The notes under the pieces are model-generated. The model was not told the DNA's origin and ran no database searches. It was given only the letters and a program-made list of their open reading frames with translations. Shown here one piece after another: positions 2,259 through 39,363 of a stretch of DNA of 39,363 nucleotides. A program made the translations under genes and the position numbers. The DNA comes from a virus: the IMG/VR virus record IMGVR_UViG_3300035156_000166, positions 1-39,363 of that record; one strand, 5' to 3'. Numbering within the stretch: the stretch's first letter is position 1; the number at the start of each line of letters is the position of its first letter.

Positions 2259-2341
2259 GGTCAGCCCTTCGGTTCAGGTGGTGTTCAAAGATGACGATCG
2301 CGGGGCGCGAGTCGTCTAAACGTCTCTGCTCAGACTACCAG

Positions 2342-3373
2342 TCAGCGGTAGCTTCGGATCTTGGCTGTCACCTGATCGGCGTAGGGCTTGCGCCTGAAAT
2401 CGCTGTAGAGCCACCCGAAGCACAGCTCCCCATTGGTGGCGGAGACGCCGCGGTCGCGGAGCTGATAGAGCGTGGCGACGTACGGGTCCGCGCTCATCAC
2501 TGCGCTGATCTGTTGCACGATCGCGTTGCCGACGTCTGCGGGGGAGCCGTAGCCGCTGACCATCGGGAGGCCGAACTCGAGGATCCCGACCGGCTTGCCG
2601 TAGCGGGTCCGGAGTTCGCGCATCCCCTCCGCCATGATCCGCATAGCGGTCGCGTTCTTCTCCGGGTAGGCGTGCACGCACACGACGTCGAGCACGGGGA
2701 GCCCGTCGAAGAACGTCTTCCACCGGGCCACTCTGCCAGCGTCGACGGGGTAGCCGAAGGGCGTCGTGGTGATCTTGGCTGCCTCGAGACCGACCACGCC
2801 GCGGATCACGCCGCGGAGGTGGGTCAGGGAAGCGTTCATCCGGGCGAGGTAGGCCGTGTTGAAGTTGGTCCCGAGCGGGGCATGGTTGCGGTAGTCGCGC
2901 CCGTCGTGCTCGTTGTAGATCTGCCAGAGGTCGACGTGCTGCCCGATGTCCTCAGCGACCGCCCGGACGTATTGCCCGTTCGCCGCGTTGAATTGCGCCT
3001 CAGTCCAGGCGTCGGAGTTGTAGAGCGAGGCCATGACCAGCACGACCCGGATGCCGCTCGCCTTGATCTTCGCGAAGGCTTGCTTGTAGAAGGCCGCGAC
3101 CGCTGCGTTGCGTGTAAACGTGCTGCCGTTCGTCGAGCCGTAGACACCGATCGGGATATCGAAACGTCCCCACGTTGCGCCGGATGCCACGAGCTCAGCG
3201 AGATCCCGGTCGAAGGTCCCCTCGTTGACGAAGATCATCGCACCGAGCGCGCCAGCCGGAGGCGGGGGAGGTGGCGGTGGCGGGGGTGGGGGAGTGGTGA
3301 GCCTGTCGATCTCTGCCTGAAGCGCTGCGATCTTGTCGTCTGCCTGCTGGCCGAAGTCGGCGTAGGTTCCCAT
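2342..3373 (-). CDS. Clan GH-A (GH5-like) glycoside hydrolase with N-terminal coiled coil and poly-Pro linker; putative virion-associated depolymerase
   Basis: 343 aa. Motifs lie in TIM-barrel order: WQIYNEHD (acid/base NE), VCVHAYP (H-x-Y), GILEFGLP (nucleophile E). The N-terminus YADFGQQADDKIAALQAEIDRL is followed by 12 consecutive Pro. Confidence 0.6.
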   Translation of the reverse strand: MGTYADFGQQADDKIAALQAEIDRLTTPPPPPPPPPPPPAGALGAMIFVNEGTFDRDLAELVASGATWGRFDIPIGVYGSTNGSTFTRNAAVAAFYKQAFAKIKASGIRVVLVMASLYNSDAWTEAQFNAANGQYVRAVAEDIGQHVDLWQIYNEHDGRDYRNHAPLGTNFNTAYLARMNASLTHLRGVIRGVVGLEAAKITTTPFGYPVDAGRVARWKTFFDGLPVLDVVCVHAYPEKNATAMRIMAEGMRELRTRYGKPVGILEFGLPMVSGYGSPADVGNAIVQQISAVMSADPYVATLYQLRDRGVSATNGELCFGWLYSDFRRKPYADQVTAKIRSYR

Positions 3374-3379
3374 TCGCCC

Positions 3380-3388
3380 AGATTACCA
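3380..3388 (-). promoter_or_regulatory. Extended -10 like element TGgTAATCT, 6 nt upstream of ATG 3373 (leaderless-type start of the second late unit)
   Basis: Minus strand reads cgcTGGTAATCTgggcgaATG. No convincing -35. Confidence 0.35.
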
Positions 3389-3458: not shown

Positions 3459-3662
3459 ATGCAAGGTTTAAACGGTGAGGTGCTCGAGGGTGACTTCGTG
3501 GAGGTCGCCATACCTGCGGGGACGTATCCCGAGCAACGCGAGGAGACGTGGCTCGAGGGCGCGGTCTACCGGATCGGCTATCACGGGTTGCTCGGATGCT
3601 CCGGGGTCACGATCAACCGCCAGGACGCGCCGGTCAGGGTGCGCAAGATCAGCCGTGGCTAA
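3459..3662 (+). CDS. Hypothetical 67-aa protein (first ORF of opposite-strand cassette)
   Basis: ORF track. Preceded by a consensus promoter and RBS. Confidence 0.6.
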   Translation: MQGLNGEVLEGDFVEVAIPAGTYPEQREETWLEGAVYRIGYHGLLGCSGVTINRQDAPVRVRKISRG

Positions 3663-5492: not shown

Positions 5493-5513
5493 AGGTTAGC
5501 GCACGTTTACACG
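5493..5513 (-). promoter_or_regulatory. Candidate late-promoter-like element CGTGTAAACG-N5-TAACCT
   Basis: Minus strand reads atCGTGTAAACGtgcgcTAACCTagagagc. The motif overlaps the portal stop codon and lies upstream of the scaffold gene. Confidence 0.35.
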
Positions 5514-6966: not shown

Positions 6967-8487
6967 TTAGGCTACCTGACGACGGAGCGTGCCCGCGCCT
7001 TCGCGACCGGCACCGGTGACCCACGCGAAACCCGTCGACACCGCGTCGACCATATCGTCATGCAAGCCCTTCGGGAAGGCGAGGAGCTCACGCTCGAGCG
7101 CCTCGAGCGGCTGAGTGTGCACCACCTGCCGACGCTGGTAGCCGTTGAGCAACAGCTCCGCCCGTGTCTCCTTCAGGATCGTCTGGTGCTTCGTCTCGTA
7201 CACGACGTCGGGGAACTCGCCGAGCACCTCGCGCCACACGTCGCCGCCCTGGTTCGTCTCGACCAAGATCAGCCGGATCTCCGGGTAACGCACGAGGAGG
7301 GAGGCTACCTTCGTGCGCAGCGCCTTCGGGTTGAGCCGGACGCCGAGACACTCCCGCACCCACACCTTGCCGGTCTGCCGGTCATGGCTCAGCACGGCCA
7401 GACCGGTCGCGTCGCTCGTCTTCCTCGAGGTGACCGCGGGGTCGACGGAGAGGAACGTCCGCGGATAGGTGGGCCGGGTCTCGTACGTGATGTCGGACGT
7501 CGACCACATGAGACCGTCGGCGGCGAGCGGTTCGTTCTGGAAGTTGATCGCGAAGTAACGATCTCCCTTCATCGCCTGCAGCTCTTCGAGTGTCCACTTC
7601 TCCGGCCAGAGAGAACGCTCCGTGCCCTCGTCGGTCAGCACAAGAGCGGGGTAGTAGCTGACCCTGAAGTTCTCCGCGGCGATCCACGGCTCCGCCTCCG
7701 AGGTGGTGACGCTCTTCACGAGCTGGTGCACCATGCTTCCCTCCATCGTGACCGTGCCGACCCACGCGACCCGAGCGTTCGCGTTGAGCGGGAGGAGAGC
7801 CTGACGCACGAGGTCGAGCCGCTGCCCCATCTGGTAGGTCGAGTAGGTCGCGGCGGGTGGTTCGATGTCGTCGAAGATGAGGAGGTCAGGCCGGAGGTTG
7901 CCGACCTTCAGACCGAGCGGGGTCGAGCCGACACCTCGAGCGGCGAAGATGAATCCGCTCTTCTGGTGCGCCATACCGCGGTTGTCCGACACCGAGACGC
8001 CCGTGCGCCGGACGGCGGGAGCGCAGAGCTCCGGGTAGTCGAGCCGGAGGAGAGCGTTCTGCTCGAGCTCAGACTTGAATGAGGCGAGGTGCTGCTCAGC
8101 TAGCCCCGCGTTGTCGGCGAACGCTGCCGCGAACTTGACGTGCCCGTGCGCGGCTGCCCACAAGGGCGCGATGAGGAACCACGTCGTCGACTTCGCGCTG
8201 TGCCGCGGTGCCACGTACGCACGCCGCCACGCCTTCGGCCGCGAGGTCGGCACGGCCCACTCAAGCATCTGCTCATACCATGCGAGGTGCGCCTCGCTGA
8301 AGCTGACCTCTCCACCCGTGCTCGGATCGGAGAGGTGGTGTCGGAGGTAGACGAGGGCGAAGAGCCGAGGGTTTAAACGGGTCAGCACGCGCCGACCGCG
8401 CGACGTCCCGAGGAGCTGCGCGTCGAAGCGCTCGAGGTAGGCCCACGCCTCAGAGCTGAGCGTCACAGTGCCACGTCGCAAGAGCAC
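6967..8487 (-). CDS. Terminase large subunit
   Basis: 506 aa. Walker A-like PRHSAKST, Walker B-like DLLIFDDIEP, C-terminal nuclease-like region. The start may be downstream (GTG 8466). Confidence 0.85.
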   Translation of the reverse strand: MLLRRGTVTLSSEAWAYLERFDAQLLGTSRGRRVLTRLNPRLFALVYLRHHLSDPSTGGEVSFSEAHLAWYEQMLEWAVPTSRPKAWRRAYVAPRHSAKSTTWFLIAPLWAAAHGHVKFAAAFADNAGLAEQHLASFKSELEQNALLRLDYPELCAPAVRRTGVSVSDNRGMAHQKSGFIFAARGVGSTPLGLKVGNLRPDLLIFDDIEPPAATYSTYQMGQRLDLVRQALLPLNANARVAWVGTVTMEGSMVHQLVKSVTTSEAEPWIAAENFRVSYYPALVLTDEGTERSLWPEKWTLEELQAMKGDRYFAINFQNEPLAADGLMWSTSDITYETRPTYPRTFLSVDPAVTSRKTSDATGLAVLSHDRQTGKVWVRECLGVRLNPKALRTKVASLLVRYPEIRLILVETNQGGDVWREVLGEFPDVVYETKHQTILKETRAELLLNGYQRRQVVHTQPLEALERELLAFPKGLHDDMVDAVSTGFAWVTGAGREGAGTLRRQVA

Positions 8488-8972: not shown

Positions 8973-9267
8973 CCTTCATCGTTGCGCCGGTGTCCTCACG
9001 TGCCAGACCTAGCCGAGCGATGGTGCGCTTCGACGCGAGGTACGCCGCTTCGAACGGACCGATCCCCGGCAAGCCCTGCAGCGCACGGGCCCGGTGCTCA
9101 CTGTACGCCGCGCGACGCAGCGAGGGGAGATCTTTGCATAGTGCACGCTCGAGCTCTTCAATCGCCTCGAGGCCGATGCCGAGCCCGCGGATCTCGGTCT
9201 TGCTCAGCTTGCGCAGAGACTTGAGCGCGTTCGTCCGGGCACGCACCGCGGCGGGTTGCGTGGTCAC
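8950..9267 (-). CDS. Hypothetical protein
   Basis: ORF track, 105 aa. GTGA start/stop overlap with the upstream gene. Confidence 0.5.
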   Translation of the reverse strand: MTTQPAAVRARTNALKSLRKLSKTEIRGLGIGLEAIEELERALCKDLPSLRRAAYSEHRARALQGLPGIGPFEAAYLASKRTIARLGLAREDTGATMKDGRVGRG

Positions 9268-9758
9268 GACTCCACCACTTCGCCTTCGATCAGGTCGTGC
9301 TCTCGCATCTTCTCTCGTCTCTCTGCCTCATCGAGCAATTCTCGGAGCTGCCGCTCTTGCTCGGACTGCACGGTCACTTGAGCGTCGACCCGCTCCGGTG
9401 CGTTTAAACCGAGGAGCTTCGCTTGCCGCTCCATCACCCGGAGGATCAGGTTCGCCGCCTCGTGGTCGAGCTTATTGACCTCGAGACCCTGCGCGAGTCT
9501 GCTCATCCCTGCCCGCATGAGCGTCTCGAGCTGCTGGTTCTGCACCTCGCGGTAGGTCTCGATCGCGGGAGGACCGTGCTTCGTGACGAAGGCGTCGAGC
9601 CTGCGCTGCACGCCGCGCACCGAGAGATCCATCCGCCGCGCGATGTCGACGTTACGCTCGCCTCTGATCTTCGCGTTGAGGATCTCGAGACCTTCGGATT
9701 CTTGCTGCTCTTTGCGCCGCTGCCGTCCGCTAGGTCGGAAGGGCTCGAGCTCTGTCAT
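9264..9758 (-). CDS. HTH DNA-binding protein, possible small terminase subunit
   Basis: Track ORF 9264..9767. I prefer ATG 9758 (MTELEPF...). HTH segment NVDIARRMDLSVRGVQRRLDAF plus a coiled-coil C-terminus. It is the first gene of the packaging operon, but three ORFs separate it from the large terminase. Confidence 0.5.
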   Translation of the reverse strand: MTELEPFRPSGRQRRKEQQESEGLEILNAKIRGERNVDIARRMDLSVRGVQRRLDAFVTKHGPPAIETYREVQNQQLETLMRAGMSRLAQGLEVNKLDHEAANLILRVMERQAKLLGLNAPERVDAQVTVQSEQERQLRELLDEAERREKMREHDLIEGEVVES

Positions 9759-9791
9759 ACTGCCCACCTTACGCGACAGCTCAGCACGACA

Positions 9792-11282: not shown

Positions 11283-13517
11283 TCACTCGTTAGGTAAGCC
11301 TAGGCTAAGTCCCCGAACTGCCGCCAGACCCCCGTACATGTAGCTGCTGTAGCCGAGCGCCTGCATCCTCTGCCACCACTTCGTCAGGGGCAGAGTGCCG
11401 TTGCCGGTCGCCTCAGTCCAGCGCTTGTAGTGGGTGTAAGCCTCTTTCTTCAGCATCCGGACGTCGATCCGGTCGGGGTCGCGAATGGCCAGCCGATCGT
11501 CCTCCGTGACCCACTCGCGCACCTGATCGGCTGCCAGCTCGAAGCGATCCTTCTCGTCCTGCGCCGACTTCGGGGTGTCGAAGTTGCCGCGCGCCATGAG
11601 CTCGCGAAGAGACCTGACCGCGTGCGCCAGGATGCCGGGGAGCTCAGACGTTAGGTCTTCACTCAGTCCCGCCTTTGTGTCGAAGGTGTTGGGGAACGTG
11701 AGGAGCTGCCAGCGCCGACGGTAGCCGTGCGTGGTGTCCGCGCTCTTCCAGAACTCGTTAGCCGAGAAGACCGGCACGGCCCAGCACGTGAACGCGAAGG
11801 GATGCTCGTACTTCCGCTGAGCCTCAATCGTGTCCTCGCCCGTGATCGCCTTAAAGCGAGCGGTCGACTTCATGTAGGCCGGGTCGATGTCGCCCGCGAG
11901 GTTCGCGATCTTGCCGAAGAGGGACGCGACTTCGAACTTCCCTTCAGCGATGTCCTGCAGGGTCACCTGAGACGTGTTCGACGCGCCGAGGAGAGCCTTG
12001 ATTACTCGGATCAGGGTCCCCTTCCCGTTGCTGCCCGCACCGTGGAAGAGGAACGCGCGCTGCAGCGGGTTCCCGGAGTAGGCCAGATAGCCGAGGATCT
12101 CCCAGAGATAGGCGTGCGCGTCGGGAGCCATGACCTGATCCACGAAGCGGTCGAAGAGCGGGCATACGGCATCCTCGTCCCACGTCACGGGAAGTTGCAC
12201 CGTGGAGTAGAACGAGGGATCGTGGGGGTAGAGCGTGCCGGTCTTCCAGAAGAGCATCCCGTTCAGGACGTTGAGGTACTCCGGCACCGGGTCGCACGTG
12301 ATGATCGCCCCGCGGCTGCGTAAGAGCTGCTGCAGCATCGGCAAGACGGTCGAGACGTGGGACGGTCGGAACTTGTGCCCGAGGAGGACCGTGCACCGGT
12401 CCGACACCTCGTGCGGAGCGCGGTGCCAGACGCCATTCCGGTACGACCAGATAGACCGGTTGTCGCTGTCATCCATAGCGAGGTCGCCCAGCTCGAGGAG
12501 GTCGAGCGCAAGCTTGGTGACGATGAGCCCGCCCTTGCCGCCGAAGTAGGCGTCGGGGTCGTAGATCTTCTCCGGATCTGCGACCCCCTCAGGGAAAGGG
12601 ACGAACATGCCGGTCTGGGCCCGTGGCATGGGTCGCCCTGCCCCGTTGACTTTCTTCCGCGCGGAGTCCCAGCGCTCGAGGATCTCGGCCAGACCGAATC
12701 CCGAGTCCCGCGGCGCGTGCTTCGCGAGGGTGTCGTAGGCGTCGCCTTCGGTGAGCGCGTTCCAGGGTGAGTACGCGATCTCGAGGAGGTTGCAGGCGAC
12801 CTCGTACGTCGTCGAGTTCCAGTCGGGCCCCGTGTAAACGTCCCGTCCGAAGTTGGACACCGCTGCCTGCGCGCACTCCCTGAGTCGCGCGACCTCGAGC
12901 TCGAAGACCGTCTCCGCGTAATGGTCGCACCGAGCCTTCTCTGCCTCGCTCATCGCGTCGCGGCTGACCACCTCCCGCGACGCCGAGGAGATCTCGACTT
13001 CCTTCGGCTGCAGCTTCTCGAGGAGCCATGCCGGGGCCGGAGCGACCTTGCCGCTCCACGTCGCCCCGCCCTCTGTGGGCAGAACCTCGTACGTGCCGAA
13101 GATCGTGCTCGAGGGTGCCGCGATGACGTAGCCACCGTCCCCGCGCACGTCGACGTGCGGGAAGAGCGACGTCGTGCTCCGCACTGGACCGGCAACCGAG
13201 AAGTAGTAGTGCGTCCCGCCGCGCCCGGTCTTGACCGTGTAGGTCCGTGGTAGGCCACCGTGGGAGCTGACGAACTCTCTCCACTCCGGCGCGCCCTGCT
13301 CGCTCTTGTAGGAATCGTCGTCGATCACCACGAGCCCGTTGCCGGTCGCGATCCCGATCAGGTCGTCCGGGTTCTCCGCCCAGTGGGTGCGGAGCTGGTC
13401 GACGTCGGTCGTGGCATCCTTGAATCCGTTGCGCGTCTTGGGTCGCTTCTGGTCGTCGCACGGGAAGACGGGCCAGCCACGGGATGCATAGTCGCACACG
13501 GCAGTGATGGGGTGCAC
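11283..13517 (-). CDS. Bifunctional DNA primase-polymerase / SF3 (D5/P4-type) helicase
   Basis: 744 aa. N-terminal prim-pol motifs: GWPVFPC, GLVVIDDD, GGTHYYF, VDVRGDGGYVIAAPS. Walker A GAGSNGKGT in the C-terminal half. RBS aggaga before GTG. Confidence 0.85.
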   Translation of the reverse strand: MHPITAVCDYASRGWPVFPCDDQKRPKTRNGFKDATTDVDQLRTHWAENPDDLIGIATGNGLVVIDDDSYKSEQGAPEWREFVSSHGGLPRTYTVKTGRGGTHYYFSVAGPVRSTTSLFPHVDVRGDGGYVIAAPSSTIFGTYEVLPTEGGATWSGKVAPAPAWLLEKLQPKEVEISSASREVVSRDAMSEAEKARCDHYAETVFELEVARLRECAQAAVSNFGRDVYTGPDWNSTTYEVACNLLEIAYSPWNALTEGDAYDTLAKHAPRDSGFGLAEILERWDSARKKVNGAGRPMPRAQTGMFVPFPEGVADPEKIYDPDAYFGGKGGLIVTKLALDLLELGDLAMDDSDNRSIWSYRNGVWHRAPHEVSDRCTVLLGHKFRPSHVSTVLPMLQQLLRSRGAIITCDPVPEYLNVLNGMLFWKTGTLYPHDPSFYSTVQLPVTWDEDAVCPLFDRFVDQVMAPDAHAYLWEILGYLAYSGNPLQRAFLFHGAGSNGKGTLIRVIKALLGASNTSQVTLQDIAEGKFEVASLFGKIANLAGDIDPAYMKSTARFKAITGEDTIEAQRKYEHPFAFTCWAVPVFSANEFWKSADTTHGYRRRWQLLTFPNTFDTKAGLSEDLTSELPGILAHAVRSLRELMARGNFDTPKSAQDEKDRFELAADQVREWVTEDDRLAIRDPDRIDVRMLKKEAYTHYKRWTEATGNGTLPLTKWWQRMQALGYSSYMYGGLAAVRGLSLGLPNE

Positions 13518-18612: not shown

Positions 18613-18622
18613 CGTTTAAACG
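18613..18622. promoter_or_regulatory. Perfect palindrome CGTTTAAACG centred between the two divergent -35 boxes (candidate operator)
   Basis: agtcaa-ca-CGTTTAAACG-c-ttgcgc. Member of the dispersed motif family. Confidence 0.5.
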
Positions 18623-18623
18623 C

Positions 18624-18652
18624 TTGCGCTGCGTGTGGATCTCGTGTAGAGT
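18624..18652 (+). promoter_or_regulatory. Promoter TTGCGC-N17-TAGAGT plus CGTAGACA block
   Basis: -10 at 18647-18652. The 18-mer is identical to the 3419 and 21503 copies. Confidence 0.65.
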
Positions 18653-25478: not shown

Positions 25479-25498
25479 AGTCTAGCGCCGTTTACACG
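25479..25498 (-). promoter_or_regulatory. Candidate late-promoter-like element CGTGTAAACG-N4-TAGACT
   Basis: Minus strand reads tcCGTGTAAACGgcgcTAGACTcgagggaagg. The motif overlaps the stop of the upstream tail gene. Confidence 0.4.
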
Positions 25499-28226: not shown

Positions 28227-30033
28227 CGTAGACCGGTGTCGGCAGGGGACGGGGAGCGCACTTCAGGTTGCGGATCACAACCGGGATCGTCGCATCGGAG
28301 AGCGTCAGCCAACACTGCTGACCGGGCTTGGCCCGGATCGCCAGGATCGCCGCCTGCTGCTGCTGCGCGGTAGTGGCTAACCCGATGGGTGCCGTCGCCT
28401 GCAGCGTGCCCTGCACAGTGCCCTCGAGCCCGCGGAGCGAATGCGTGACGACGGTCGACTCCGAGGAGTTGAGAGCGGTCAGCACCTCAGAGTCTTCGCC
28501 GTAGATCCAGTCCCTCGTCTCGCGCCCGAAGAGCACCACCTCATTCTGCCGGAGGTAGTCGCTGAGCCATATCCCCTGAGACCGGACCGTGACCGTCCCG
28601 GTCGAGTTGCCCGAGCTCGCCTTACCGTTCACCACCGCGAGCACCTGGTAGGTCAGGCTGTTGCCCGGAGGCGCGGAGCGGTCGACGTAGGAGAACTGCG
28701 TGCCGCTGCCGACGTCCCCCGGCAGGATCCCCGAGACGATCACGACGTTATTGCGCATGATCGAGAAGGAGTCGGGGAACGTCGCCCGCGACCACGCGAG
28801 CGTCACCTGAGGCCGTGGGTCACCCGGTGTCAGTACGAGGTTCGTGGTCGGCGTCGTGAGGTTGGAGAGGACGAAGGAGAAATCCCTCGAGGCATCGGAC
28901 CACGCCGGATCGTTCGGGATCGTCTCGCGGTTCTTGCTGTCCCAGACGATCACGCGCACGTTGTAGATCGTCCCCGCCGCGGACGGCAGAGCTGCAGCGG
29001 GCAGGGTGAGCGACGTCGCGGTGCCGGTGACCTTGCCGGATGACCAGATGATCGCGCCGGTCACCGGGTCGGAAATGTTGACCTGATACGCCTTCTGCGT
29101 CTCGCCGGTGAAGCTCCAGACGATCGGCGGGGTCTGCTCGTTGACGAAGTTGTTCGGCGCGACTCCGGGGCTCGTGATCGCTACGGTCCCCTTGATATCG
29201 CGTGTAAACGACTCAGCTTGTGACCACGCCGAAACGAGACCGTTCGTGTCGGTGCACCGCATCCGCCACCACCGCGTCTCGCCGTCGGCGAGCCCGACAA
29301 AGGTCCCCTGCGTCGAGAGGTCGAGCTCCGGAGCCGAAGCGGTAACCGCGCCGGAGTCCCACGCCGGAGACGTCCAGAGGTTTGAGGAGTTCGTCTGCAC
29401 CTGCACCGCGGCCAGAGCGTTATCGTTCCCGACGTCGGTGTAGGTCGCCGCGACTGTAGGTGCCGCCAGGCTGACCACACGCCCGCCTCCGGGACGAAGA
29501 GCGGTCGGGGCTGACGGGGGTACGGACCATGCCAGCTCGAGCCTAGGACGGAGCGTAGGGTCCGTGGCAGTGGAGTCGTAGAACCATAGGAGCGGGTTGA
29601 AGTTGCCGGTGAGCTGCCAGCCGTACCAGACGTCCCCGTTCGCCACGCTCTGAACTTGGCTCGTGACGTCGACCAGCCACTCCGCGCCCTGCGCGATCGG
29701 CCCGGTCCGGCTGACCGTCTTCGCCGCGTCCGGGTAGAGCGTGGTCGGGCGCGTGTTCCACGTGACCTTGCTCGAGGACATCGCCTGCGCGAGCCGCTTC
29801 AGGGAGAGCGTCATCGTGCCCGCCTGCGCCGACGTCCGGCTGTAGAGGTAGAGCTTCGCGGAGCTGACCACGGCTCCCTTCGGGATCGCGGAGAGGCCGA
29901 AGTAGAGCAAGCCCCACGCATCACCCGCGCCCCCGGTCCGGACGCCGAACTGCGTCAGGTACTCGAAGTTCTTCGAGGGATCGGCGAGCGAGACCGTAGT
30001 CGCGAGCGCGGTGCGTAGCGTGGTGGCTGCCAT
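28189..30033 (-). CDS. Minor tail protein: N-terminal carbohydrate-binding-like (DNRLRE-like) domain, FN3-like repeats, distal-tail-like C-terminus
   Basis: 614 aa, immediately after the tape measure. Contains LLYFGLSAIPKGAVVSSAKLYLY...KVTWNTRP. Confidence 0.6.
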   Translation of the reverse strand: MAATTLRTALATTVSLADPSKNFEYLTQFGVRTGGAGDAWGLLYFGLSAIPKGAVVSSAKLYLYSRTSAQAGTMTLSLKRLAQAMSSSKVTWNTRPTTLYPDAAKTVSRTGPIAQGAEWLVDVTSQVQSVANGDVWYGWQLTGNFNPLLWFYDSTATDPTLRPRLELAWSVPPSAPTALRPGGGRVVSLAAPTVAATYTDVGNDNALAAVQVQTNSSNLWTSPAWDSGAVTASAPELDLSTQGTFVGLADGETRWWRMRCTDTNGLVSAWSQAESFTRDIKGTVAITSPGVAPNNFVNEQTPPIVWSFTGETQKAYQVNISDPVTGAIIWSSGKVTGTATSLTLPAAALPSAAGTIYNVRVIVWDSKNRETIPNDPAWSDASRDFSFVLSNLTTPTTNLVLTPGDPRPQVTLAWSRATFPDSFSIMRNNVVIVSGILPGDVGSGTQFSYVDRSAPPGNSLTYQVLAVVNGKASSGNSTGTVTVRSQGIWLSDYLRQNEVVLFGRETRDWIYGEDSEVLTALNSSESTVVTHSLRGLEGTVQGTLQATAPIGLATTAQQQQAAILAIRAKPGQQCWLTLSDATIPVVIRNLKCAPRPLPTPVYDVSFEFYQVGIK

Positions 30034-30037: not shown

Positions 30038-33000
30038 TCAGCGCCTCATTCCGTCGATGGTTGCGCGGTACTCGCCCGCCTGGTCGATCTCGTCGGCGAT
30101 GATACGCCGGATGCCGCCCAGCTCAGGCCCGAGGTCGATATTGATGATGATCGGGGAACGGCCCACCGCGCCCGCGCCGGAGCTCGAGCTCGAGGGAGAC
30201 CCGCCCGTGGCGAACCTGCGCCCGGTGAAGAACTCCTTCGGGTACGCTCCCGCATTGATCCCGGCCATGATCTCGTCACCGAGGAGCTTCGACGTCCGAG
30301 CCTGAATGACCCACTCGTTCGCGGAGAGCCGAGCGTCGATCAGGTCGGAGGTGTCCCCGCCCGGACCGCGCACCTTGCCCGGAGATCCACCCGCGGCGAA
30401 TCCGGGCACCCCGTCGCCAGCTCGCCCGCCCGCCGCGGACTTTTTGACCGTCCGCACGGTGACCGTAACGGTCTTGCCCTGAATCCCGTTGATCGAGCTC
30501 TGCACGCCGCCCACGCCGGACTGCCGGACCGAGATCGTGACGGTCTTGCCCTTGATCCCGTTAATGTCGCCCTTCGTCTTGGAGACGCCCTTCGAGCCGA
30601 CCGTGACGGTAGCCTTCTGCCCCTTCGCCGCGCCCTTGACCTCTCCCTTGACCTTGGAGACGCCCTTCGCGTGCACGTCGACCGGAGCCTTCGCACCCTT
30701 CGCCGCGCCCTTCACGTCGGAGCGGACCTTCGGTACGCCCTTCGAGCCGACCGTGACGGTCGCCTTCGCGCCCTTCGCCGCGCTCTTGACGTCGGACTTC
30801 GCCTTGCCGGTGCCGCGGGTCTTGACGTCGACGTTCGCCGACCGACCCTTAGCTGCGTCTTTGACGTCCGACTTCGCCTTGCCGGTGCCGCGGGTCTTGA
30901 CGTCGACCGGTGCCTTGATCGGGTTGCCGAAGTAGTCGAGCTTCCCCTTCGCCAGCTTGTCGCCCTGCACGTTGACCGAGACCGGAGCCTTGATCGTTTT
31001 GCCGTACTGGTCGAGCTTCGGCTTCGCTCCGCCGTCGGTCACGGTCGGCACGACCGGGACTTTCTTCGGCTTGAGGAGGGTCAGGAGGTAGGCTTCCGCC
31101 GCTCCCGCCCCGCTCTTGTCGTAGATAGTCTGCAGTTTGATCTGCTGCGGCTCGGTCAGGCCGGAGAGGGCTTGCTTGTACTTCTCGACCTTCGCCTGCT
31201 GCAGCGCCATTCCCACGGCGTCGATCTTGGTCGACACCTTGTCGGGCACGAGCCCGTAGGCGTCGGCGAGCTTGTTTGCCTGCCCCTTCGTGAGACCGGC
31301 TGCGTCCGCTGCGGAGACGAAGGCGTCGCGGACTTTCTGAGTCGCGGCTGCCGCATCCTTCGAGCTGGCACCCTGAGCGACCAGAGACGCGACGTACGCC
31401 TTCCCGCTCGAGGCGAGCTGACCGATCGCCGCGCCCGCGTCGCGTTGCTTCTGCGTACCATCGGCGAGGAGCCCCGTGCTCTTACTGATCGCCAGCGAGT
31501 CGGCGGAGAGTGCGGTCTCGTGCTTTTTGGTGCTGAGAGCCGCCCCGTCAACGGCTGCCTCATACGCCGCGTGAGCCCCGGCCACCCCCTGAATCGCGTC
31601 GCCCGTGGCGAAGATCTTCTGCGAGAGGGCTTGGTTGTCGGCTGCGCTCCGGCGCGTCGTCTCGCCCAGAGCCGCCACTGCGGAGATCGAAGCGAGTACG
31701 GCTGCCTGCTGTTGCTTGTGCGCCTCGCTCTCCGCCCCGAGAGCGTCGGTGCCAGCGTCGACCGACTCCGCGTAGGTCTTGTAGGCTTCCTGCCCGGTCT
31801 TCAGCTCATCGTTGCCGCCCGCGATCGCCTCTTGGATCTTGACGACATCTTTCGCCGCGTCGGAGGTGGACCGCCCGAACTCGTCGGTCCCTCCGTAGGC
31901 TGCGTTCGTCGCGTCGGTGTACTTCGTCAGCGCATCGTTTACACGCGCTTGAGCGTCAGCGTTGCCGAGCGAGGCCGCGGTCAGGTCGCCGACGGAGATC
32001 CCGAGCTTGTTCGCGCTGTCAGCCGCCCCCGACTTCATAAGCGAGTCGGTGCGTTGCTTCGCGATGGACTGATCCAGCACGCCGTTGCTCGCGATGAGAG
32101 CCTGAGTGAAGCTGTCTTGCGACGCCTTCGCCGTGGCCGCGTTGCTCGCCCACTTGCCGATCAGGACTGCCGCGATCGAGATAGCTACACCGATCGCTCC
32201 GGCTGCCAGGACCGCCGTCCGCGCCCCGATACCAAGCTCGATGAAAGCGAGCTTCGCGGCGGAGGCTGCGCCCGCCAGCTTGAGGACCGCCCCGGTCGCC
32301 ACGAGAGCGATACCACCGATCGCCGCCACCTTCAGGAGCCCGCCCTGCACGCCTGCCGGGAGCCCTGAGAAGGCGTCGACGAGGTTCGTCACGCCCTGCA
32401 CGATCCCGCGGAGCGGGATCTGGCTCGAGGTCGCCGCCCCGATGAAAGCCGACTGCAGAGCCCCGCCGAGCTTCTCGACGTCGCCCTTCAGGTTGTCCAT
32501 CTTGGTTGCCGCGACTTCGGAGGCGTAGCCGCTGTCATTGACCGCTGCCGTCCACTTAGCGATCCCGGCCGCGCCGCCGCTGTAGAGCACCGTGGCCGCG
32601 GTGATGCTGTTCTTCCCGAAGATCCGGGCCAGAGCTGCGTCCCGCTCCGCCTGCCCGAGCCCGCCGAGCTTCGCCTCGAGCTCCCCTACGGCTGCCTCCA
32701 TACCGATGAACTGCCCGGAGGCGTCCCGGACGTTGATGCCGTACTTCTCGATCGTCTTCGCGCCAGCGCCCATCGGAGCGGTCAGGGAGACGATCATGGA
32801 CCGGAGGGAGGTGCCCGCCTGCTCACCCTTGATCCCCGCGTCTGCCAGTCCTGCCAGGGTGCCGACGGTCTGGTCGATGCTCATGTTCGCGCCGGAGGCC
32901 ACGGGACCGACGTACTTCAGGGCCCCGGCGAGATCCTGCACCTCGCCTTGAGCCTTACCAGCTCCCGCGGCGAGGAGGTCGGCTACGTGGCTAGCCTGCG

Positions 33001-35124: not shown

Positions 35125-35210
35125 GAGAGATCTCGCATTCTCCGCTCGAGAGCGGTAGGTCGGACGCCGGAGCGAACGGTTGAGCCGGACCGGACGTACG
35201 GCCCGAGATC

Positions 35211-35229: not shown

Positions 35230-35264
35230 TGCCCCACCTCTTGCCAACCACCGCTACCGACCCT

Positions 35265-35366: not shown

Positions 35367-35377
35367 AACTTACACGG

Positions 35378-35770
35378 TTAAGGCGTGCGGGTCGCCGCGT
35401 TGACCGTGACGTCGACGATGTAGCGGCAGAGCTTCGACTCCGGCTCACGGAGGTAGAGGACGGCGATGTCCTGCACCGTGTAAACATGCGTGGTCGCGTC
35501 GAGCCACTTCCCGCCCAGGCCGTTGAGGTAGTCGAGAAGGGCGCGCTTGACGTCGGAAGCGTCCTCTTTCTTCGAGGCCCAGCAGTCGAACGAGATCCGG
35601 GGGAACTCGAGGAGCTCGTCGACGCCGCCGCCCACCTGAGACAGGGTGACCAGCGGGTAGGCCGGAGATCCCTCCGGGGTCGAGTAGAAGACCCTGCCCG
35701 CCAGCTTCTCCGGCGCGAGGTTCACCTTCATGTGCGACTTCAGCGCTTGCTCTACGTCCGCCGCCCTCAT
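35378..35770 (-). CDS. Tail terminator-like protein
   Basis: 130 aa, last connector gene before the major tail gene. Confidence 0.5.
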   Translation of the reverse strand: MRAADVEQALKSHMKVNLAPEKLAGRVFYSTPEGSPAYPLVTLSQVGGGVDELLEFPRISFDCWASKKEDASDVKRALLDYLNGLGGKWLDATTHVYTVQDIAVLYLREPESKLCRYIVDVTVNAATRTP

Positions 35771-36633: not shown

Positions 36634-37070
36634 ACGATCGGGATCCACGGGTCAGGCTGCCGACGGTAGCGGGGCCGGACGGACGGCATGACGCTCTGGA
36701 TCTTCACGGTCGAGCTCGAGACCCACGAGAGCCGACGGAGAGCTGCGCGCGCGAGCGGGGAGAGGAAGCGGTCTTCGGTCTCCGTGCCGCCGAAGTAGGA
36801 GATCGAAGCCCCGTTCGCCGACACCGACGAGACGCCGGAGATCCTCTTCAGCGCCTCCGGATTCTCGTCCAGGTAGGCCACCTGCCAGATGATCGCCGAC
36901 CGGAGCACGGCGAGGTCCGCTTCGCTGTACGTCGCTTCAGCTAGCGCAGAGTCCCCGAGGTGCGTGCCGGTCTCAGTCTCAATGATGAATTGAGACTTCG
37001 CGATCGCCACGGAGTCGACGGAGAGCCCGAGCTTGTCGGCGACCTCTTGAGCGGTGACGAGGTTCGTCAT
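36630..37070 (-). CDS. Head-to-tail adaptor
   Basis: Track ORF trimmed to ATG 37070 (ATGA overlap). MTNLVTAQEVADKLGLSVDS... is typical of connector N-termini. Confidence 0.6.
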   Translation of the reverse strand: MTNLVTAQEVADKLGLSVDSVAIAKSQFIIETETGTHLGDSALAEATYSEADLAVLRSAIIWQVAYLDENPEALKRISGVSSVSANGASISYFGGTETEDRFLSPLARAALRRLSWVSSSTVKIQSVMPSVRPRYRRQPDPWIPIV

Positions 37071-37384
37071 AGTGCGACTCCCAACGGATAGACTTCGATG
37101 ATCTCGGTCGTCGTCCAGTCGAGCACGGTCGACCCGGACACCCTGACGCGGAGCTTGTAGTCCCCCGCGGTCGGGAAGAGCGTCGTGGGTGGCCACGCGA
37201 AGAGCGCCTTGCCGTCCTCACGCACGGAGAGGGTGCCGCCCGACGTCGAGACTGCCTGACCCTCCGGACTGACCAGCTCGAGAACGAGCTGCCCTTCATG
37301 CGGGGTGAGGTCGATCTGATCCCTGCCGTCGGTCACGGTGATGAGAAGAGCCTGCAGCGGGACAGATCCCACGGTGAGCTTCAC
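37067..37384 (-). CDS. Small beta-sandwich (Ig-like?) protein
   Basis: 105 aa, with an alternating beta-strand pattern. GTGA overlap with the giant ORF. Confidence 0.45.
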   Translation of the reverse strand: MKLTVGSVPLQALLITVTDGRDQIDLTPHEGQLVLELVSPEGQAVSTSGGTLSVREDGKALFAWPPTTLFPTAGDYKLRVRVSGSTVLDWTTTEIIEVYPLGVAL

Positions 37385-39363
37385 GATCGCCTCCTCCGGA
37401 AGTTAACGGCAGGCCGGTCGAGCTGCAACGTTATCTCGATCGTACCGCGTCTGCGGAAGATCACGGCGGGACGCTCGAGCGTGAGCGTGACGTCGATCGT
37501 GCCGCGAACGTCGCCCAGACCGACGCCCACGACGGACCAGAGACCGAGGCCGGAGCCGCTCGAGACCCTCGAGCCTTCGCCGGATCCGGTCAAGAGGATG
37601 ATCCCGGAGCCGTCGCCCTGCGGGATGGTGAGCACCGGAGCGGAGCCCGAGCCGGTGCTGGTGATGCTGACCACGGCGGAGCCCGAGCCGACGGAGCTCC
37701 GCGAGCCAAAGCCCGTGCCCGTGTAGCTGACCGTCCCGGTCGCCACGCCGAGCGGGACCTTGCTGCCGCTGCCCGTTCCCGAGACTGCCACGGTGCCCGA
37801 GCCGGAGCCCTGCCCGCCTGTCAGCGTCGGCGCGGTGCCGGACCCGCTGCCTTCTACCTGCAGGGTCGCGATCCCTGTCCCCTGAGCAAGCCTCGAGCCC
37901 GACCCGGCGCTCGAGAACTGTATCGCACCCGCCCCGTCGCCGCTCTTGAGGGTCGACCCTGCGCCAACTCCGGAGACCGCGACCGTGCCGCTGCCGCTGC
38001 CGGACCTCGAGGTGGTGCCAGTGCCGGAGCCGGAGACCGAGACCGTGCCCGTGCCGGAGCCGGAGCTGACGCCGACCGTCGGCGCGAAGCCGACGCCGGA
38101 GCCGGAGACCGCGACCGTGCCGACACCTGAGCCGGACTTGTCCGTGATGCCGTTGCCGGAGCCGACCACGGGCACAGAGCCCGTCCCTGAGCCCGCGGGC
38201 TGCTGAGATCCAGCACCCGAGCCGGAGACCGCTACAGCGCCCGCTCCCGCCCCGCTGCGCGCCGTTGTGCCGTCGCCGCTACCTGAGACCGCCCAGACGC
38301 CCGCGCCTGCGCCCTGAGCGATCCTCGCGCCGCTGCCGCTGCCTACGACAGAGACCGTGCCGGAGCCGTCGCCGTTCGGGACGCCGAGCACGGGTGCCGT
38401 GCCGGATCCAGCGCCGGTGACCGCGACCGTGCCCGCCCCGTCGCCTGTCGGTGCCTTGCTGCCGATGCCCGACCCGATGACCGCGACCGTGCCCGTGCCG
38501 GAGCCGGACCTCGAGGTGGTGCCAGCTCCCGATCCGGTGACGTCGACCGAGCCCGCGCCCTGCCCGCTCTTGACCGTCGACCCTGCGCCAGCTCCCGAGA
38601 CTGCCACGGTGCCCGTGCCGGAGCCCGTGTAAACGGTGCTGCCCGAACCTGAGCCGGAGACTGCGACCGTGCCGGTGCCCGACCCTGCCGGAGTGCGCGT
38701 GCCCGATCCGTCGCCAGAGATCGCTACGGTGCCGACGGCGGAGCCGCCAGCTACCCGCGTGCCCGACCCTGAGCCGGAGACCGCGACCGTGCCGGTGCCC
38801 GAGCCGGACTTGTCCGGAGTGCCGGAGAGGTAGTCAGCAACCGTGATGCCGTACTCATCGGAGAGGGCACTGTGAACAATGGCCCGGTCCCCAGCCGAGA
38901 GGACCGAGGAAAAGTCGACCACATCGCTGAGGTAGATGTTCGCGGGCTCGCCGCCGTCGGTCTTCGCGCCGAGGGTGAGCGAGGTCCCGGTCAGCGTGTG
39001 AGCCGTCGAGCTCGAGGCGTCGAGCGCTCCGTTGACGTAGATCGTGTTCGAGTTGGTCCCGTTGTCCGCGATGGTCAGGACGTACCACGTGTTGATCTGC
39101 GGGGTGAAGACACCGTTCGTCAGGAAGGTAACGTTCTGGACACCGGTACGGAAGCGCGGCGTGGCGTCGACGAGAGCCTGCAACAGCGAGGAAGTGACGT
39201 TCTGCGTCGCGCCCAGAGTCTTGAACCGCACCACCATGAACCGAGTAGTGGCGGTGTTCTGCGCGACCGGCGCGGTCATGTGGTTGATGCTTGCCGAGGA
39301 GAACTCGACCGCTGCCTTGCCGTTCGCCAGGAACGCACCGGTCGAGCGGTACGTCGGCTGCCG
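37381..39363 (-). CDS. C-terminal part of the wrap-around 991-aa ORF: second LamG-like domain plus 21 Gly/Ser-rich 20-aa units
   Basis: The track lists 37381..39279, but the frame stays open upstream to the window end and joins 1120->1. Confidence 0.8.
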   Translation of the reverse strand, partial: RQPTYRSTGAFLANGKAAVEFSSASINHMTAPVAQNTATTRFMVVRFKTLGATQNVTSSLLQALVDATPRFRTGVQNVTFLTNGVFTPQINTWYVLTIADNGTNSNTIYVNGALDASSSTAHTLTGTSLTLGAKTDGGEPANIYLSDVVDFSSVLSAGDRAIVHSALSDEYGITVADYLSGTPDKSGSGTGTVAVSGSGSGTRVAGGSAVGTVAISGDGSGTRTPAGSGTGTVAVSGSGSGSTVYTGSGTGTVAVSGAGAGSTVKSGQGAGSVDVTGSGAGTTSRSGSGTGTVAVIGSGIGSKAPTGDGAGTVAVTGAGSGTAPVLGVPNGDGSGTVSVVGSGSGARIAQGAGAGVWAVSGSGDGTTARSGAGAGAVAVSGSGAGSQQPAGSGTGSVPVVGSGNGITDKSGSGVGTVAVSGSGVGFAPTVGVSSGSGTGTVSVSGSGTGTTSRSGSGSGTVAVSGVGAGSTLKSGDGAGAIQFSSAGSGSRLAQGTGIATLQVEGSGSGTAPTLTGGQGSGSGTVAVSGTGSGSKVPLGVATGTVSYTGTGFGSRSSVGSGSAVVSITSTGSGSAPVLTIPQGDGSGIILLTGSGEGSRVSSGSGLGLWSVVGVGLGDVRGTIDVTLTLERPAVIFRRRGTIEITLQLDRPAVNFRRRRS
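37510..38800 (-). repeat. In-frame coding tandem repeat array (about 60-nt units) encoding GSGxGxVxVxGxGxG plus a 5-aa linker
   Basis: I counted 21 units in the protein. Every fourth or fifth linker is 9 aa (TAPVLGVPN, FAPTVGVSS, TAPTLTGGQ, SAPVLTIPQ). Confidence 0.8.
39237..39363. repeat. Right copy of the 127-bp terminal direct repeat
   Basis: Identical to 1-127. Confidence 0.95.

What the first reader, a model, noticed from the sequence alone, without database searches (positions are those of the whole stretch)
2313..38645. Dispersed, strongly over-represented 10-bp near-palindrome CGT(G/T)TAAACG (about 21 copies), kept in genes by rare codons
Sites found by eye (10-mer coordinates):
- Exact CGTGTAAACG or its complement CGTTTACACG, 11 sites: 3111, 5504, 12831, 14385, 20360, 22572, 25489, 26611, 29201, 31936, 38636.
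- Perfect palindrome CGTTTAAACG: 18613.
- One-mismatch variants: 2313 (CGTCTAAACG), 3465, 8370, 9401, 21005, 24392, 35220, 35477, 36309.

Under a simple composition model at about 66% GC, I estimate well under one expected copy of the exact 10-mer on both strands. The core GTTTAAAC (5 copies) is similarly unexpected.

Inside genes the motif is nearly always read as:
- Val-Tyr-Thr (GTT TAC ACG, 7 times);
- Phe-Thr-Arg (TTT ACA CGC, twice);
- x-Leu-Asn (TTA AAC, 4 times).

These readings use GTT, TTT and the very rare TTA codon. That argues for selection at the DNA level rather than for a peptide. Sites are spread every 0.3-4 kb around the whole circle, in both orientations. The asymmetric form favours GTTTACAC on the coding strand about 10:5.

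The function is unknown. Candidates are a binding site for a phage regulator (stoperator-like), a methylation or modification target, a nicking site, or a promoter element.
Basis: seen in the sequence. Interest (0 to 1): 0.85.

Follow-up and report, generated by a model that had tools for sequence, protein, structure and literature searches.

The report
Protease-linked 10-bp motif across phage genome
A 10-letter DNA word scattered about every 2 kb through this phage genome is real, is kept by selection on the DNA itself, and turns up in many unrelated phages of Actinobacteria that share one gene, a SprT-like zinc protease, which is probably the protein that reads it.

Summary
CGTGTAAACG occurs 11 times (about 0.02 expected; about 1 under a codon-preserving shuffle), and 20 sites lie within one mismatch of CGTKTAAACG. 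The sites are spaced more evenly than random. They use a third of the genome's TTA codons and a quarter of its TTT codons.

The window is a circular, 39.2-kb siphovirus of Actinobacteria type, with no integrase found.

The same 10-mer is strongly over-represented in unrelated isolated phages of Arthrobacter (Yang, 14 copies), Microbacterium (Floof 7, Mabodamaca 14) and Streptomyces (JackieB, 23). It also marks 68 of 80 IMG/VR loci. All of these carry a homologue of window gene 18693..19322, a SprT-like HExxH metalloprotease with a C-terminal zinc-ribbon-like module. That is the only gene specifically shared with all four.

The motif is absent from relatives that lack the gene, from host-matched control phages, and from host DNA flanking two prophages. 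A copy sits in or beside the gene's own promoter.

Best reading: the motif is a genome-wide array of binding sites for the SprT-like protein, working like operators and stoperators. This may be the "missing repressor" of Cluster AZ and EH phages. Binding is inferred, not shown.

The parts
2313..2322 (+). Site with 1 mismatch (CGTCTAAACG). Intergenic, just downstream of a -10-like TAGTCT on the gene strand.
   Evidence: the 96% relative L001 has CGTTTACACC at the same place
3111..3120 (+). Exact site inside gene 2342..3373(-), read as Thr-Phe-Thr-Arg.
3465..3474 (.). Site with palindromic core (GGTTTAAACG) at codons 3-5 of small early ORF 3459..3662(+). Uses a TTA codon.
5504..5513 (-). Exact site containing the TAA stop codon of the portal gene. 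It lies 5 nt upstream of a -10-like TAACCT, ahead of the scaffold and capsid genes.
8370..8379 (.). Site with palindromic core inside the terminase gene (Arg-Leu-Asn, TTA codon). Absent at the orthologous position in phage B.
9401..9410 (.). Site with palindromic core inside gene 9264..9767(-) (Gly-Leu-Asn). Phage B has GGGTTGGACG (Gly-Leu-Asp) here.
12831..12840 (+). Exact site inside the primase/helicase gene (Val-Tyr-Thr).
14385..14394 (-). Exact site inside gene 13869..14444(+) (Arg-Leu-His, TTA codon).
18613..18622 (.). Perfect palindrome CGTTTAAACG, one base upstream of the -35 hexamer of the promoter of the SprT-like gene.
   Evidence: phage B has the same layout (AGTTTAAACG)
18624..18652 (+). 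Sigma-70-type promoter of the SprT-like gene: TTGCGC, 17-nt spacer, TAGAGT.
   Evidence: read from sequence, not mapped experimentally
18693..19322 (+). SprT-like zinc metalloprotease gene (209 aa). It has HELIH and a C-terminal KKQGTRMLK...VRMTRKW...CPCH module. Proposed reader of the motif.
20360..20369 (-). Exact site in the early region. The ORF call around it is doubtful.
21005..21014 (+). Site with 1 mismatch (GGTGTAAACG) inside gene 20708..21061(+).
22572..22581 (+). Exact site inside gene 22209..23504(-) (Val-Tyr-Thr).
24392..24401 (+). Site with 1 mismatch (CGTGTAAACA) inside lysin gene 23273..24436(-).
25489..25498 (-). Exact site containing the TAA stop codon of gene 25492..26472(-). 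It lies 4 nt upstream of a -10-like TAGACT.
26611..26620 (+). Exact site inside tail gene 26482..27681(-). Conserved at the orthologous codons (Asp-Val-Tyr-Thr) in phage B.
29201..29210 (+). Exact site inside minor-tail gene 28189..30033(-). The orthologous site in phage B reads CGTTTAAACG, a Thr-to-Lys change that keeps the motif.
31936..31945 (-). Exact site inside the tape-measure gene, in reverse orientation (Arg-Val-Asn). Conserved at the orthologous position in phage B.
35220..35229 (-). Site with 1 mismatch (GGTGTAAACG). Intergenic, 3 nt upstream of CTAGACTG, an element conserved upstream of the major tail gene in all four related phages.
35477..35486 (+). Site with 1 mismatch (CGTGTAAACA) inside the tail-terminator gene (Val-Tyr-Thr).
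38626..38635 (+). Exact site inside the 991-aa gene that spans the contig junction (Val-Tyr-Thr).

Best explanation
The motif C-GTGTAAAC-G is the recognition sequence of the phage's own SprT-like protein (gene 18693..19322). [quoted passage not shown]

The site is asymmetric, so it is most simply read by one protomer on duplex DNA. About 20 copies, one roughly every 2 kb in both orientations, form a genome-wide array that selection maintains by number and spacing rather than by position.

Proposed steps, all inferred:
- The protein is made early from a sigma-70-type promoter that carries a site next to its -35 hexamer, which suggests autoregulation.
- It then occupies the array.
- Sites next to promoters would hinder RNA polymerase. 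In the window these lie upstream of -10-like hexamers ahead of the scaffold/capsid genes, the major tail gene and the genes after 25492.
- Sites inside genes would act as roadblocks or as anchoring points for the protease domain.

In temperate relatives (Clusters AZ and EH) this system is the best candidate for the unidentified immunity repressor with its operators.

Shown: enrichment, DNA-level selection, co-occurrence with the gene, and placement at promoters. Inferred: binding itself, and what binding does.
For: **1. The motif is real and selected at the DNA level**.

**2. It persists through site turnover in a relative with 66% portal identity.**
- Phage B has 8 exact, 2 palindromic and 7 one-mismatch sites.
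- Three sites sit at orthologous positions. The rest were gained or lost.

**3. The identical 10-mer is the top over-represented word in unrelated isolated phages of three host genera.**
- Yang has 14 copies, Floof 7 (GTGTAAAC 16), Mabodamaca 14 and JackieB 23.
- The only ORF specifically shared between the window and all four is the SprT-like gene. The one other hit is generic primase/helicase similarity that motif-less phages also have.

**4. Association across public viral contigs.**
- 80 IMG/VR loci encoding relatives of the protein hold 418 GTGTAAAC in 1.16 Mb. 68 of the 80 have at least 2.
- 48 control loci (portal relatives without the gene) total about 0.67 Mb. They hold 2 copies, and none has 2 or more. 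Fisher p = 3e-24.

**5. Host-matched controls lack the motif.**
- M. foliorum phages Dismas and Brahms have 0 copies.
- A. globiformis phage Auxilium has 0 copies.
- In two prophages, 8 sites lie in 24.5 kb of prophage DNA and none in about 16.7 kb of host flank.

**6. A motif copy lies in or beside the core promoter of the SprT-like gene.**
- This holds in the window, B, Yang, the EPSL27 prophage, Mabodamaca and JackieB; Floof has a two-mismatch copy. The position relative to the promoter differs among them.
- 45 of 80 IMG/VR loci have a core motif within 200 bp upstream of the gene. About 9% is expected (p = 9e-26).

**7. The C-terminal module covaries with the motif.**
- KKQGTRMLK...VRMTRKW is nearly invariant in motif-bearing phages.
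- It is replaced by KSRSGKSIK...VSISKAR in the motif-less Dismas and Brahms homologues.

**8. Sites favour intergenic DNA.** 9 of 19 in Yang (p = 2e-6) and 5 of 20 in the window (p = 0.04). In Yang two sites directly follow -10 hexamers.

**9. Literature.**
- AZ and EH phages are temperate and homoimmune but have no identifiable repressor (PMC8758107).
- Liebe, whose SprT-like gene carries a frameshift, makes clear plaques. Its near-identical sibling Maureen makes turbid plaques (bioRxiv 10.1101/2025.05.26.655371).
Against: - There is no direct binding evidence.
- Foldseek found only weak, non-significant metalloprotease matches and no DNA-binding match. The window protein is below Pfam's cut-off for SprT-like (16.5 against 25.6 bits).
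- 12 of 80 homologue-bearing loci have fewer than 2 core motifs. Some of them (L149, L162, L166) have the same C-terminal signature. Most are partial loci or have lower G+C.
- Dismas, Brahms and Burkholderia phage Mica carry homologues at 35-39% identity but have no motif.
- The gene content of phage D, which carries a variant motif, is unknown.
- The invariant HExxH implies a catalytic role that simple repression does not explain.
- No integrase was found in the window or in the sequence held for phage B (about 95% of its contig), and none is annotated in the fetched part of JackieB, so an immunity role cannot be the whole story.
- The specificity is identical across very divergent phages. 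Immunity repressors normally diversify.
- Orientation is mixed, unlike the polar stoperators.
Confidence: 0.6

Rival explanations
1. Sequence-addressed protease. The SprT-like protein does bind the motif, but the array does not serve to repress transcription. Instead it positions and activates a Spartan-like, DNA-dependent protease along the phage's own genome. There it would cleave DNA-bound proteins, such as host silencers like Lsr2, defence complexes or trapped enzymes. It could also cleave itself.
For: - The catalytic HExxH and the surrounding residues are invariant in 37 homologues.
- Spacing is even and does not depend on orientation in the window, Yang and JackieB. That suits coverage of a whole genome by a locally acting enzyme.
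- The system occurs in phages with and without integrases.
- The specificity is unusually conserved across hosts.
- Spartan-type proteases are DNA-activated (established knowledge; cited).
Against: - No substrate is known and no protease activity has been shown.
- Sites that overlap core promoter elements, and the Liebe clear-plaque phenotype, fit regulation more directly.
Confidence: 0.22
2. The motif is read by a conserved host protein of Actinobacteria, or it mirrors a signature of the host genome of the uptake-sequence or Chi type. On this view the SprT-like gene is only a fellow traveller or acts on that host protein.
For: - The motif occurs in phages of three host genera, which a conserved host factor could explain.
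- Even spacing, use of both orientations and placement inside genes resemble uptake sequences.
Against: - Phages of the very same host strains differ. For M. foliorum, Floof and Mabodamaca have 16 core copies each, while Dismas and Brahms have 0. For A. globiformis, Yang has 20 and Auxilium 0.
- About 16.7 kb of host DNA next to two prophages has none.
- Portal relatives of the window have 2 core copies in 630 kb.
Confidence: 0.06
3. A classical repressor-stoperator system, as in Cluster A mycobacteriophages. An undetected helix-turn-helix repressor binds the sites and blocks elongation.
For: - There are many copies of a short asymmetric site spread over the genome, some at promoters.
- Temperate relatives have no identified repressor.
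Against: - No shared HTH or RHH protein exists among motif-bearing phages. The all-ORF comparison found none at 30 aa or longer and E <= 1e-3.
- 15 of the window's 20 sites are inside genes, and orientation is mixed.
- Stoperators are 13 bp, intergenic and polar.
- The window has no integrase or partition genes.
Confidence: 0.05
4. The motif is a target for a DNA transaction: nicking, modification, priming, packaging, or a promoter for a phage factor.
For: - The site is asymmetric.
- Some copies sit next to -10-like hexamers.
Against: - The primase is not the determinant. The window's primase resembles that of motif-less phage C (56%) more than that of motif-bearing phage B (35% over 30%).
- The terminase family is shared by motif-less relatives.
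- No nickase or methylase is shared among the motif-bearing phages.
- Flanks of the sites have no common -10 or -35 element.
- The conserved CTAGACTG upstream of the major tail gene persists without the motif in phages B and C.
Confidence: 0.04

Closest known systems
Repressor-stoperator systems of Cluster A mycobacteriophages (L5 gp71, Bxb1 gp69), with related arrays in Rhodococcus Cluster CA, Gordonia A15 and Streptomyces R4-like phages
   Same: - Twenty or so copies of a short asymmetric site are spread over the whole phage genome.
- One or more copies lie at an early promoter.
- They are read, here presumably, by a single phage-encoded protein.
- There is a link to lysogeny in temperate members.
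   Different: - The site is 10 bp, not 13.
- Most copies are inside genes, kept at a codon cost, rather than in short intergenic gaps.
- Both orientations occur.
- The candidate reader is a SprT-like metalloprotease, not a two-domain HTH repressor.
- The system also occurs in phages with no detected integrase.
- The specificity is identical across clusters and host genera instead of diversifying with immunity groups.
SprT/Spartan/Wss1 DNA-dependent metalloproteases (Pfam PF10263)
   Same: - HExxH zinc-protease core followed by a small zinc-binding, nucleic-acid-binding module.
- 21 of 37 homologues hit PF10263.
- The Cluster AZ preprint reports HHpred probability above 99% to the mammalian SprT domain.
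   Different: - Known members bind DNA without sequence specificity and repair DNA-protein crosslinks.
- Here the family member tracks a defined 10-bp word, which implies sequence-specific recognition.
- The window protein itself is below Pfam's cut-off.
ImmA/IrrE/CapP metalloprotease-repressor pairs
   Same: - A zinc metalloprotease tied to control of a mobile element or defence operon.
- CapP was the top Foldseek hit, though not significant (E = 0.2).
   Different: - Those systems have a separate HTH repressor as the protease's substrate, and only a few operators.
- No partner repressor is shared among the motif-bearing phages.
DNA uptake sequences (Neisseria DUS, Haemophilus USS) and Chi sites
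   Same: - Short words, strongly over-represented, evenly spaced, in both orientations.
- Tolerated inside genes in preferred reading frames.
   Different: - Those are signatures of the host genome, read by host machinery.
- This motif is confined to phage and prophage DNA and is absent from host flanks and from other phages of the same hosts.

Membership tests
Cluster A-type repressor-stoperator system | Many (about 20-35) dispersed copies of one short asymmetric site | tested here: met
   20 sites within 1 mismatch. The site is asymmetric: CGTGTACACG occurs 0 times.
Cluster A-type repressor-stoperator system | Sites lie in short intergenic gaps or overlap stop codons | tested here: not met
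   15 of 20 sites are inside genes. 2 overlap stop codons and 3 are intergenic. Intergenic positions are enriched but in the minority.
Cluster A-type repressor-stoperator system | One orientation relative to the direction of transcription | tested here: not met
   The bias inside genes is predicted by codon cost. Intergenic sites in Yang are mixed, 3 + and 6 -.
Cluster A-type repressor-stoperator system | gp71-like HTH immunity repressor, plus an integrase or parABS | tested here: not met
   PHROG and Pfam scans of the window's ORFs found none. No HTH protein is shared among motif-bearing phages.
SprT-like metalloprotease (PF10263) for gene 18693..19322 | HExxH zinc-binding catalytic motif | tested here: met
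   HELIH is present in the window protein. H85, E86 and H89 are invariant in 37 homologues.
SprT-like metalloprotease (PF10263) for gene 18693..19322 | Profile match above the curated threshold | tested here: inconclusive
   The window protein scores 16.5 bits against a cut-off of 25.6. 21 of 37 homologues match at E <= 0.01, the best at 1.2e-5. A PDB profile search found nothing.
SprT-like metalloprotease (PF10263) for gene 18693..19322 | Metalloprotease fold with a C-terminal zinc-binding, DNA-binding subdomain | tested here: inconclusive
   The AF2 model has pLDDT 86.7. It shows a helical core and a C-terminal strand-strand-helix unit carrying C...CPCH. Foldseek gives only weak zinc-protease matches, the best at E = 0.2.
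SprT-like metalloprotease (PF10263) for gene 18693..19322 | DNA-dependent proteolysis | not testable with these tools
   Needs biochemistry.
DNA uptake sequence or Chi-like host signature | Over-represented throughout the host chromosome | tested here: not met
   0 sites in about 16.7 kb of host DNA next to two prophages, against 8 in 24.5 kb of prophage. Other phages of the same host strains have 0. The host sample is small.
Sigma-70-type promoter or UP element | Fixed position relative to -35/-10 hexamers, and orientation matching transcription | tested here: not met
   Only 1 of the 6 early promoters carries it. Its position relative to promoter elements varies between phages. Flanks of the sites show no common hexamers.

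The most novel reading that the evidence does not exclude
A phage-encoded, Spartan-like metalloprotease has acquired sequence-specific DNA recognition. Phages that carry it seed their genomes, even inside essential genes, with an evenly spaced array of its 10-bp address.

On this reading the array makes the protease act in cis on the phage chromosome. It could be a protease-coupled repressor, or a device that strips host silencers or defence proteins from phage DNA.

This would be a new class of genome-wide cis-element and reader pair, spread across actinophage clusters and host genera.
Probability: 0.25. Interest if true: 0.9.

Novelty: new variant of a known kind. Interest (0 to 1): 0.8.

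Why it matters
**Scope.** The finding turns an oddity of one contig into a general, testable rule. One 10-bp word marks many otherwise unrelated actinophage genomes: Arthrobacter Cluster AZ, Microbacterium phages such as the Cluster EH phage Floof, Streptomyces phage JackieB, and many metagenomic phages. It is tied to a single gene.

**A named candidate for an open question.** Cluster AZ and EH phages form immune lysogens, yet no repressor has been identified (PMC8758107). This work gives a concrete candidate protein together with its binding sites.

**A new property for a protease family.** If the protein does read the motif, it would be the first SprT/Spartan-type protease known to me with sequence-specific DNA targeting.

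**Practical uses.**
- The motif is a cheap marker for annotating such phages and prophages.
- It gives defined targets for engineering immunity or gene expression in actinophages.

Tried and rejected
- **Nucleotide search of isolated phages.** Megablast of 25 kb against the phage collection found no match.
- **Single-protein locus searches.** Searches in IMG/VR with the portal, a tail protein and the exonuclease found no relatives. Alignments were needed instead.
- **Literature text searches.** Searches for the 8- to 10-mers, alone or with 'bacteriophage', returned only primers and unrelated operators such as GalR. Searches on stoperators and on SprT with repressor found no description of this motif.
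Rejected. The window's primase matches that of motif-less phage C, not that of motif-bearing phage B.
- **RHH and HTH proteins as readers.** Rejected.
- **Zinc-ribbon protein 19602..19802.** It is shared with phage B only.
- **Transcription polarity.** Rejected, because the codon shuffle predicts the bias.
- **Frameshift site.** The TTTAAAC variants look like a -1 frameshift site, but most sites (CGTTTACACG) are not slippery.
- **parS, Rex or LacI-family half-site.** The resemblance was recalled from memory only. No full operators are present, so I did not pursue it.
- **An analogous motif in motif-less relatives.** Phage C, L004, L007, L012, L096 and L097 show no comparable over-represented word.
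- **Classifying the IMG/VR homologues by C-terminal signature.** This was uninformative. The loci had been retrieved with that very peptide pattern.
- **Structure-based search for a DNA-binding domain.** Inconclusive.

Full report
**1. The observation**

- CGTGTAAACG or its complement occurs 11 times in the window. Dinucleotide shuffles expect 0.02. The last coordinate is 38626, not 38636.
- Allowing G or T at position 4 and one mismatch gives 20 distinct sites.
- The window is a circular contig with a 127-bp terminal overlap, so its unique length is 39,236 bp.
- I called genes by third-position G+C and annotated them with PHROGs and Pfam. The element is a siphovirus.
  - Late and replication genes lie on the minus strand: terminase, portal, scaffold, capsid, tail genes, a 1249-aa tape measure, lysins and a primase/helicase.
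  - A block of early genes lies on the plus strand, from 13.9 to 21.8 kb.
  - No integrase, partition gene or classical repressor was found.
- The nearest isolated phages infect Actinobacteria, at 36% portal identity or less.

**2. The excess is not a codon artefact**

- I permuted synonymous codons within each gene, keeping every protein and its codon usage. This gives 0.98 exact copies on average, with a maximum of 4 in 1000 trials. Part of that mean comes from intergenic copies that the shuffle cannot remove.
- Inside coding sequence the expectation is 0.20 copies in the CGTTTACACG reading and 0.008 in the reverse reading. The observed counts are 8 and 1.
- Both orientations are therefore enriched 40- to 120-fold.
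- 4 of 12 TTA codons and 4 of 17 TTT codons in the genome lie in sites.
- 15 of 17 TGTAAA hexamers lie in the motif.
- The symmetric form CGTGTACACG would be the cheapest to encode, yet it never occurs. The site is truly asymmetric.
- Spacing is more even than random: CV 0.56, p = 0.005.

**3. Close relatives**

- Portal and tail-protein homologues led to metagenomic relatives.
- A 96% relative (L001) keeps all seven sites in the region it covers.
- Phage B (L003 + L092; portal 66% identical) has 8 exact, 2 palindromic and 7 one-mismatch sites in 38.4 kb.
- Three sites are at orthologous codons, in the tail protein, a minor tail protein and the tape measure. At one of them the amino acid differs (Thr against Lys) while the motif family is kept. 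The other sites are lineage-specific. Copy number is thus maintained through turnover.
- Phage D (L098) has six copies of GRTGTAAACG.
- Phage C (portal 54%) and seven other relatives have none, and they show no substitute motif.
- Across the fetched high-G+C loci, 29 of 30 TGTAAACG occurrences lie in the A-like, B and D lineages.

**4. Which gene goes with the motif**

- Genes shared by the window and B but not C were few.
- One of them, 18693..19322, has the palindromic copy of the motif one base upstream of its -35 hexamer. B has the same layout.
- The protein has HELIH and a basic C-terminal C...CPCH module. It belongs to phrog_6361.
- tblastn against isolated phages found 164 records, annotated 'SprT-like protease'. 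Most are Arthrobacter, Microbacterium and Streptomyces phages.
- The same 10-mer is the most over-represented word in four of these genomes, which are otherwise unrelated to the window:

| Phage | Host genus | Exact 10-mer | Expected |
|---|---|---|---|
| Yang | Arthrobacter | 14 | about 0.1 |
| Floof | Microbacterium | 7 (GTGTAAAC 16) | about 0.06 |
| Mabodamaca | Microbacterium | 14 | about 0.04 |
| JackieB | Streptomyces | 23 | about 0.26 |

- An all-ORF comparison shows that the SprT-like gene is the only gene specifically shared between the window and all four. The other hit is generic primase/helicase similarity, which motif-less phages also have.

**5. Breadth and controls**

- A profile of the protein retrieved 80 IMG/VR loci.
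  - They hold 418 GTGTAAAC in 1.16 Mb, one per 2.8 kb, and 68 of 80 have at least two.
  - 48 control loci without the gene hold 2, and none has two or more. Fisher p = 3e-24.
  - The consensus from the 418 sites is C(69%)-GTGTAAAC-G(76%).
- Host-matched controls exclude a host signature.
  - M. foliorum phages Dismas and Brahms have no copy. Their SprT-like homologues are only 38-39% identical.
  - A. globiformis phage Auxilium has no homologue and no copy.
  - In prophages of Arthrobacter sp. EPSL27 and a Microbacterium, all 8 sites lie in prophage DNA. None lies in about 16.7 kb of adjacent host DNA.
- Burkholderia phage Mica has a 35% homologue and no copy. The link therefore holds for one clade of the family.
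- In Dismas and Brahms the C-terminal module reads KSRSGKSIK...VSISKAR. Motif-bearing phages have the nearly invariant KKQGTRMLK...VRMTRKW. This is what one would expect if the module reads the DNA.

**6. Placement**

- A copy lies in or beside the core promoter of the SprT-like gene, at a different position in different phages:
  - upstream of -35 in the window and B;
  - over the -35 and spacer in JackieB;
  - over the -10 in Mabodamaca;
  - directly after the -10 in Yang and the EPSL27 prophage, and as a two-mismatch copy in Floof.
- 45 of 80 IMG/VR loci have a core motif within 200 bp upstream of the gene, against 9% expected (p = 9e-26).
- In Yang, 9 of 19 sites are intergenic (p = 2e-6). 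In the window, 5 of 20 are (p = 0.04).
- Three window sites sit 3-5 nt upstream of -10-like hexamers, ahead of the scaffold/capsid genes, the major tail gene and the genes after 25492. The hexamers persist without the motif in B and C, so the motif is not part of those promoters.
- Even spacing recurs in Yang (p = 0.001) and JackieB (p < 0.0002).
- One contig, L161, has 23 sites in 7.5 kb beginning at the gene.

**7. The protein**

- The AlphaFold2 model is confident (pLDDT 86.7). It has a helical core that carries the HExxH, a disordered linker, and a C-terminal unit of two strands and a helix.
- Foldseek against the PDB gives only weak zinc-protease matches, with CapP best at E = 0.2.
- A PDB profile search finds nothing.
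- Pfam SprT-like is hit by 21 of 37 homologues. The window protein is below threshold.

**8. What is published**

- The same preprint notes that Liebe, with a frameshift in this gene, makes clear plaques. Its near-identical sibling Maureen makes turbid ones (10.1101/2025.05.26.655371).
- An earlier paper shows that Powerpuff forms immune lysogens although no repressor can be identified in AZ or EH phages (PMC8758107).
- Neither paper mentions the 10-mer. Text searches for it found nothing relevant.

**9. Interpretation**

- The simplest account is that the motif is the binding site of the SprT-like protein and that the array works like operators plus stoperators.
- Binding, and what binding does, are inferred from co-occurrence, promoter placement and one natural mutant.
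- Several facts fit a pure repressor poorly:
  - the invariant catalytic motif;
  - the presence of the system in phages without integrases;
  - the mixed orientation of the sites;
  - the unchanged specificity across clusters and host genera.
- These facts keep open a more novel reading, in which the array addresses a DNA-dependent protease to the phage chromosome.
- The following alternatives were tested and are not supported (sections 2-6):
  - a host signature;
  - a classical HTH stoperator system;
  - priming sites;
  - packaging sites;
  - nick or modification targets;
  - promoter elements.

Noticed in passing
window 11150-11257 and 35262-35369: A roughly 110-bp AT-rich element is duplicated almost identically in two intergenic gaps. 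In each copy, two tandem AACTACACCAAC repeats on the minus strand and two on the plus strand flank a 66-bp core. The motif AACTACACCAAC is itself strongly over-represented. It may be a regulatory region, a small RNA or an origin.
   Followed up: partly
window 11258-11281: TTATCCACA-TTTTCC-TGTGGATAA is an inverted pair of perfect DnaA-box consensus sequences. It lies just after the first copy of the duplicated element, between the 3' end of the primase gene and the next gene. It could be an origin.
   Followed up: no
window 3421, 16255, 18645, 19587, 20663, 21505 (+ strand): Six sigma-70-type early promoters of the form TTGACx/TTGCGC-N17-18-(TG)TAGAGT share a conserved downstream box, CGTAGACAAGAGC. 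Phage B has five of the same kind. The one at 19587 appears to give a leaderless mRNA, with ATG at 19602.
   Followed up: partly
window about 35209-35216 (- strand); L003 about 19764; L098 about 1530; L094 about 3130: CTAGACTG, about 90 nt upstream of the major tail protein start codon, is invariant in four phages that are only 62-82% identical in that protein. It is probably the -10 of a strong late promoter.
   Followed up: partly
window 27642-28226 (-): An HNH endonuclease gene (PHROG E = 8e-37) sits between tail genes. It has no counterpart in phages B or C and is probably a mobile insertion.
   Followed up: no
window 37381-39363 joined to 1-1120 (-): A 991-aa ORF spans the contig junction. 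It is rich in G+C at second codon positions and contains repeated GAGCCGGAGACCGCGACCGTGCC-type units. It has no family match and may be a fibre or collagen-like protein.
   Followed up: no
L161 3965-11489 (IMGVR_UViG_3300027963_002865): This is an extreme array: 23 GTGTAAAC sites in 7.5 kb, about one per 330 bp. It begins at the SprT-like gene in a contig of 61% G+C.
   Followed up: partly
L104 (Brahms) about 30730 and L101 (Dismas) about 33170: The motif-less Microbacterium phages have a different repeated word, ATACTTCTATTGTA (5 copies in Brahms). One copy lies just upstream of their divergent SprT-like gene. It may be the counterpart site for that clade.
   Followed up: no
L106 13772-16197: The Microbacterium prophage that carries the SprT-like gene ends next to the host comEC and comEA competence genes.
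   Followed up: no
L003 6946-7098: Phage B encodes a 50-aa protein with an Lsr2 DNA-binding domain just upstream of its terminase gene. The window has no detectable counterpart.
   Followed up: no
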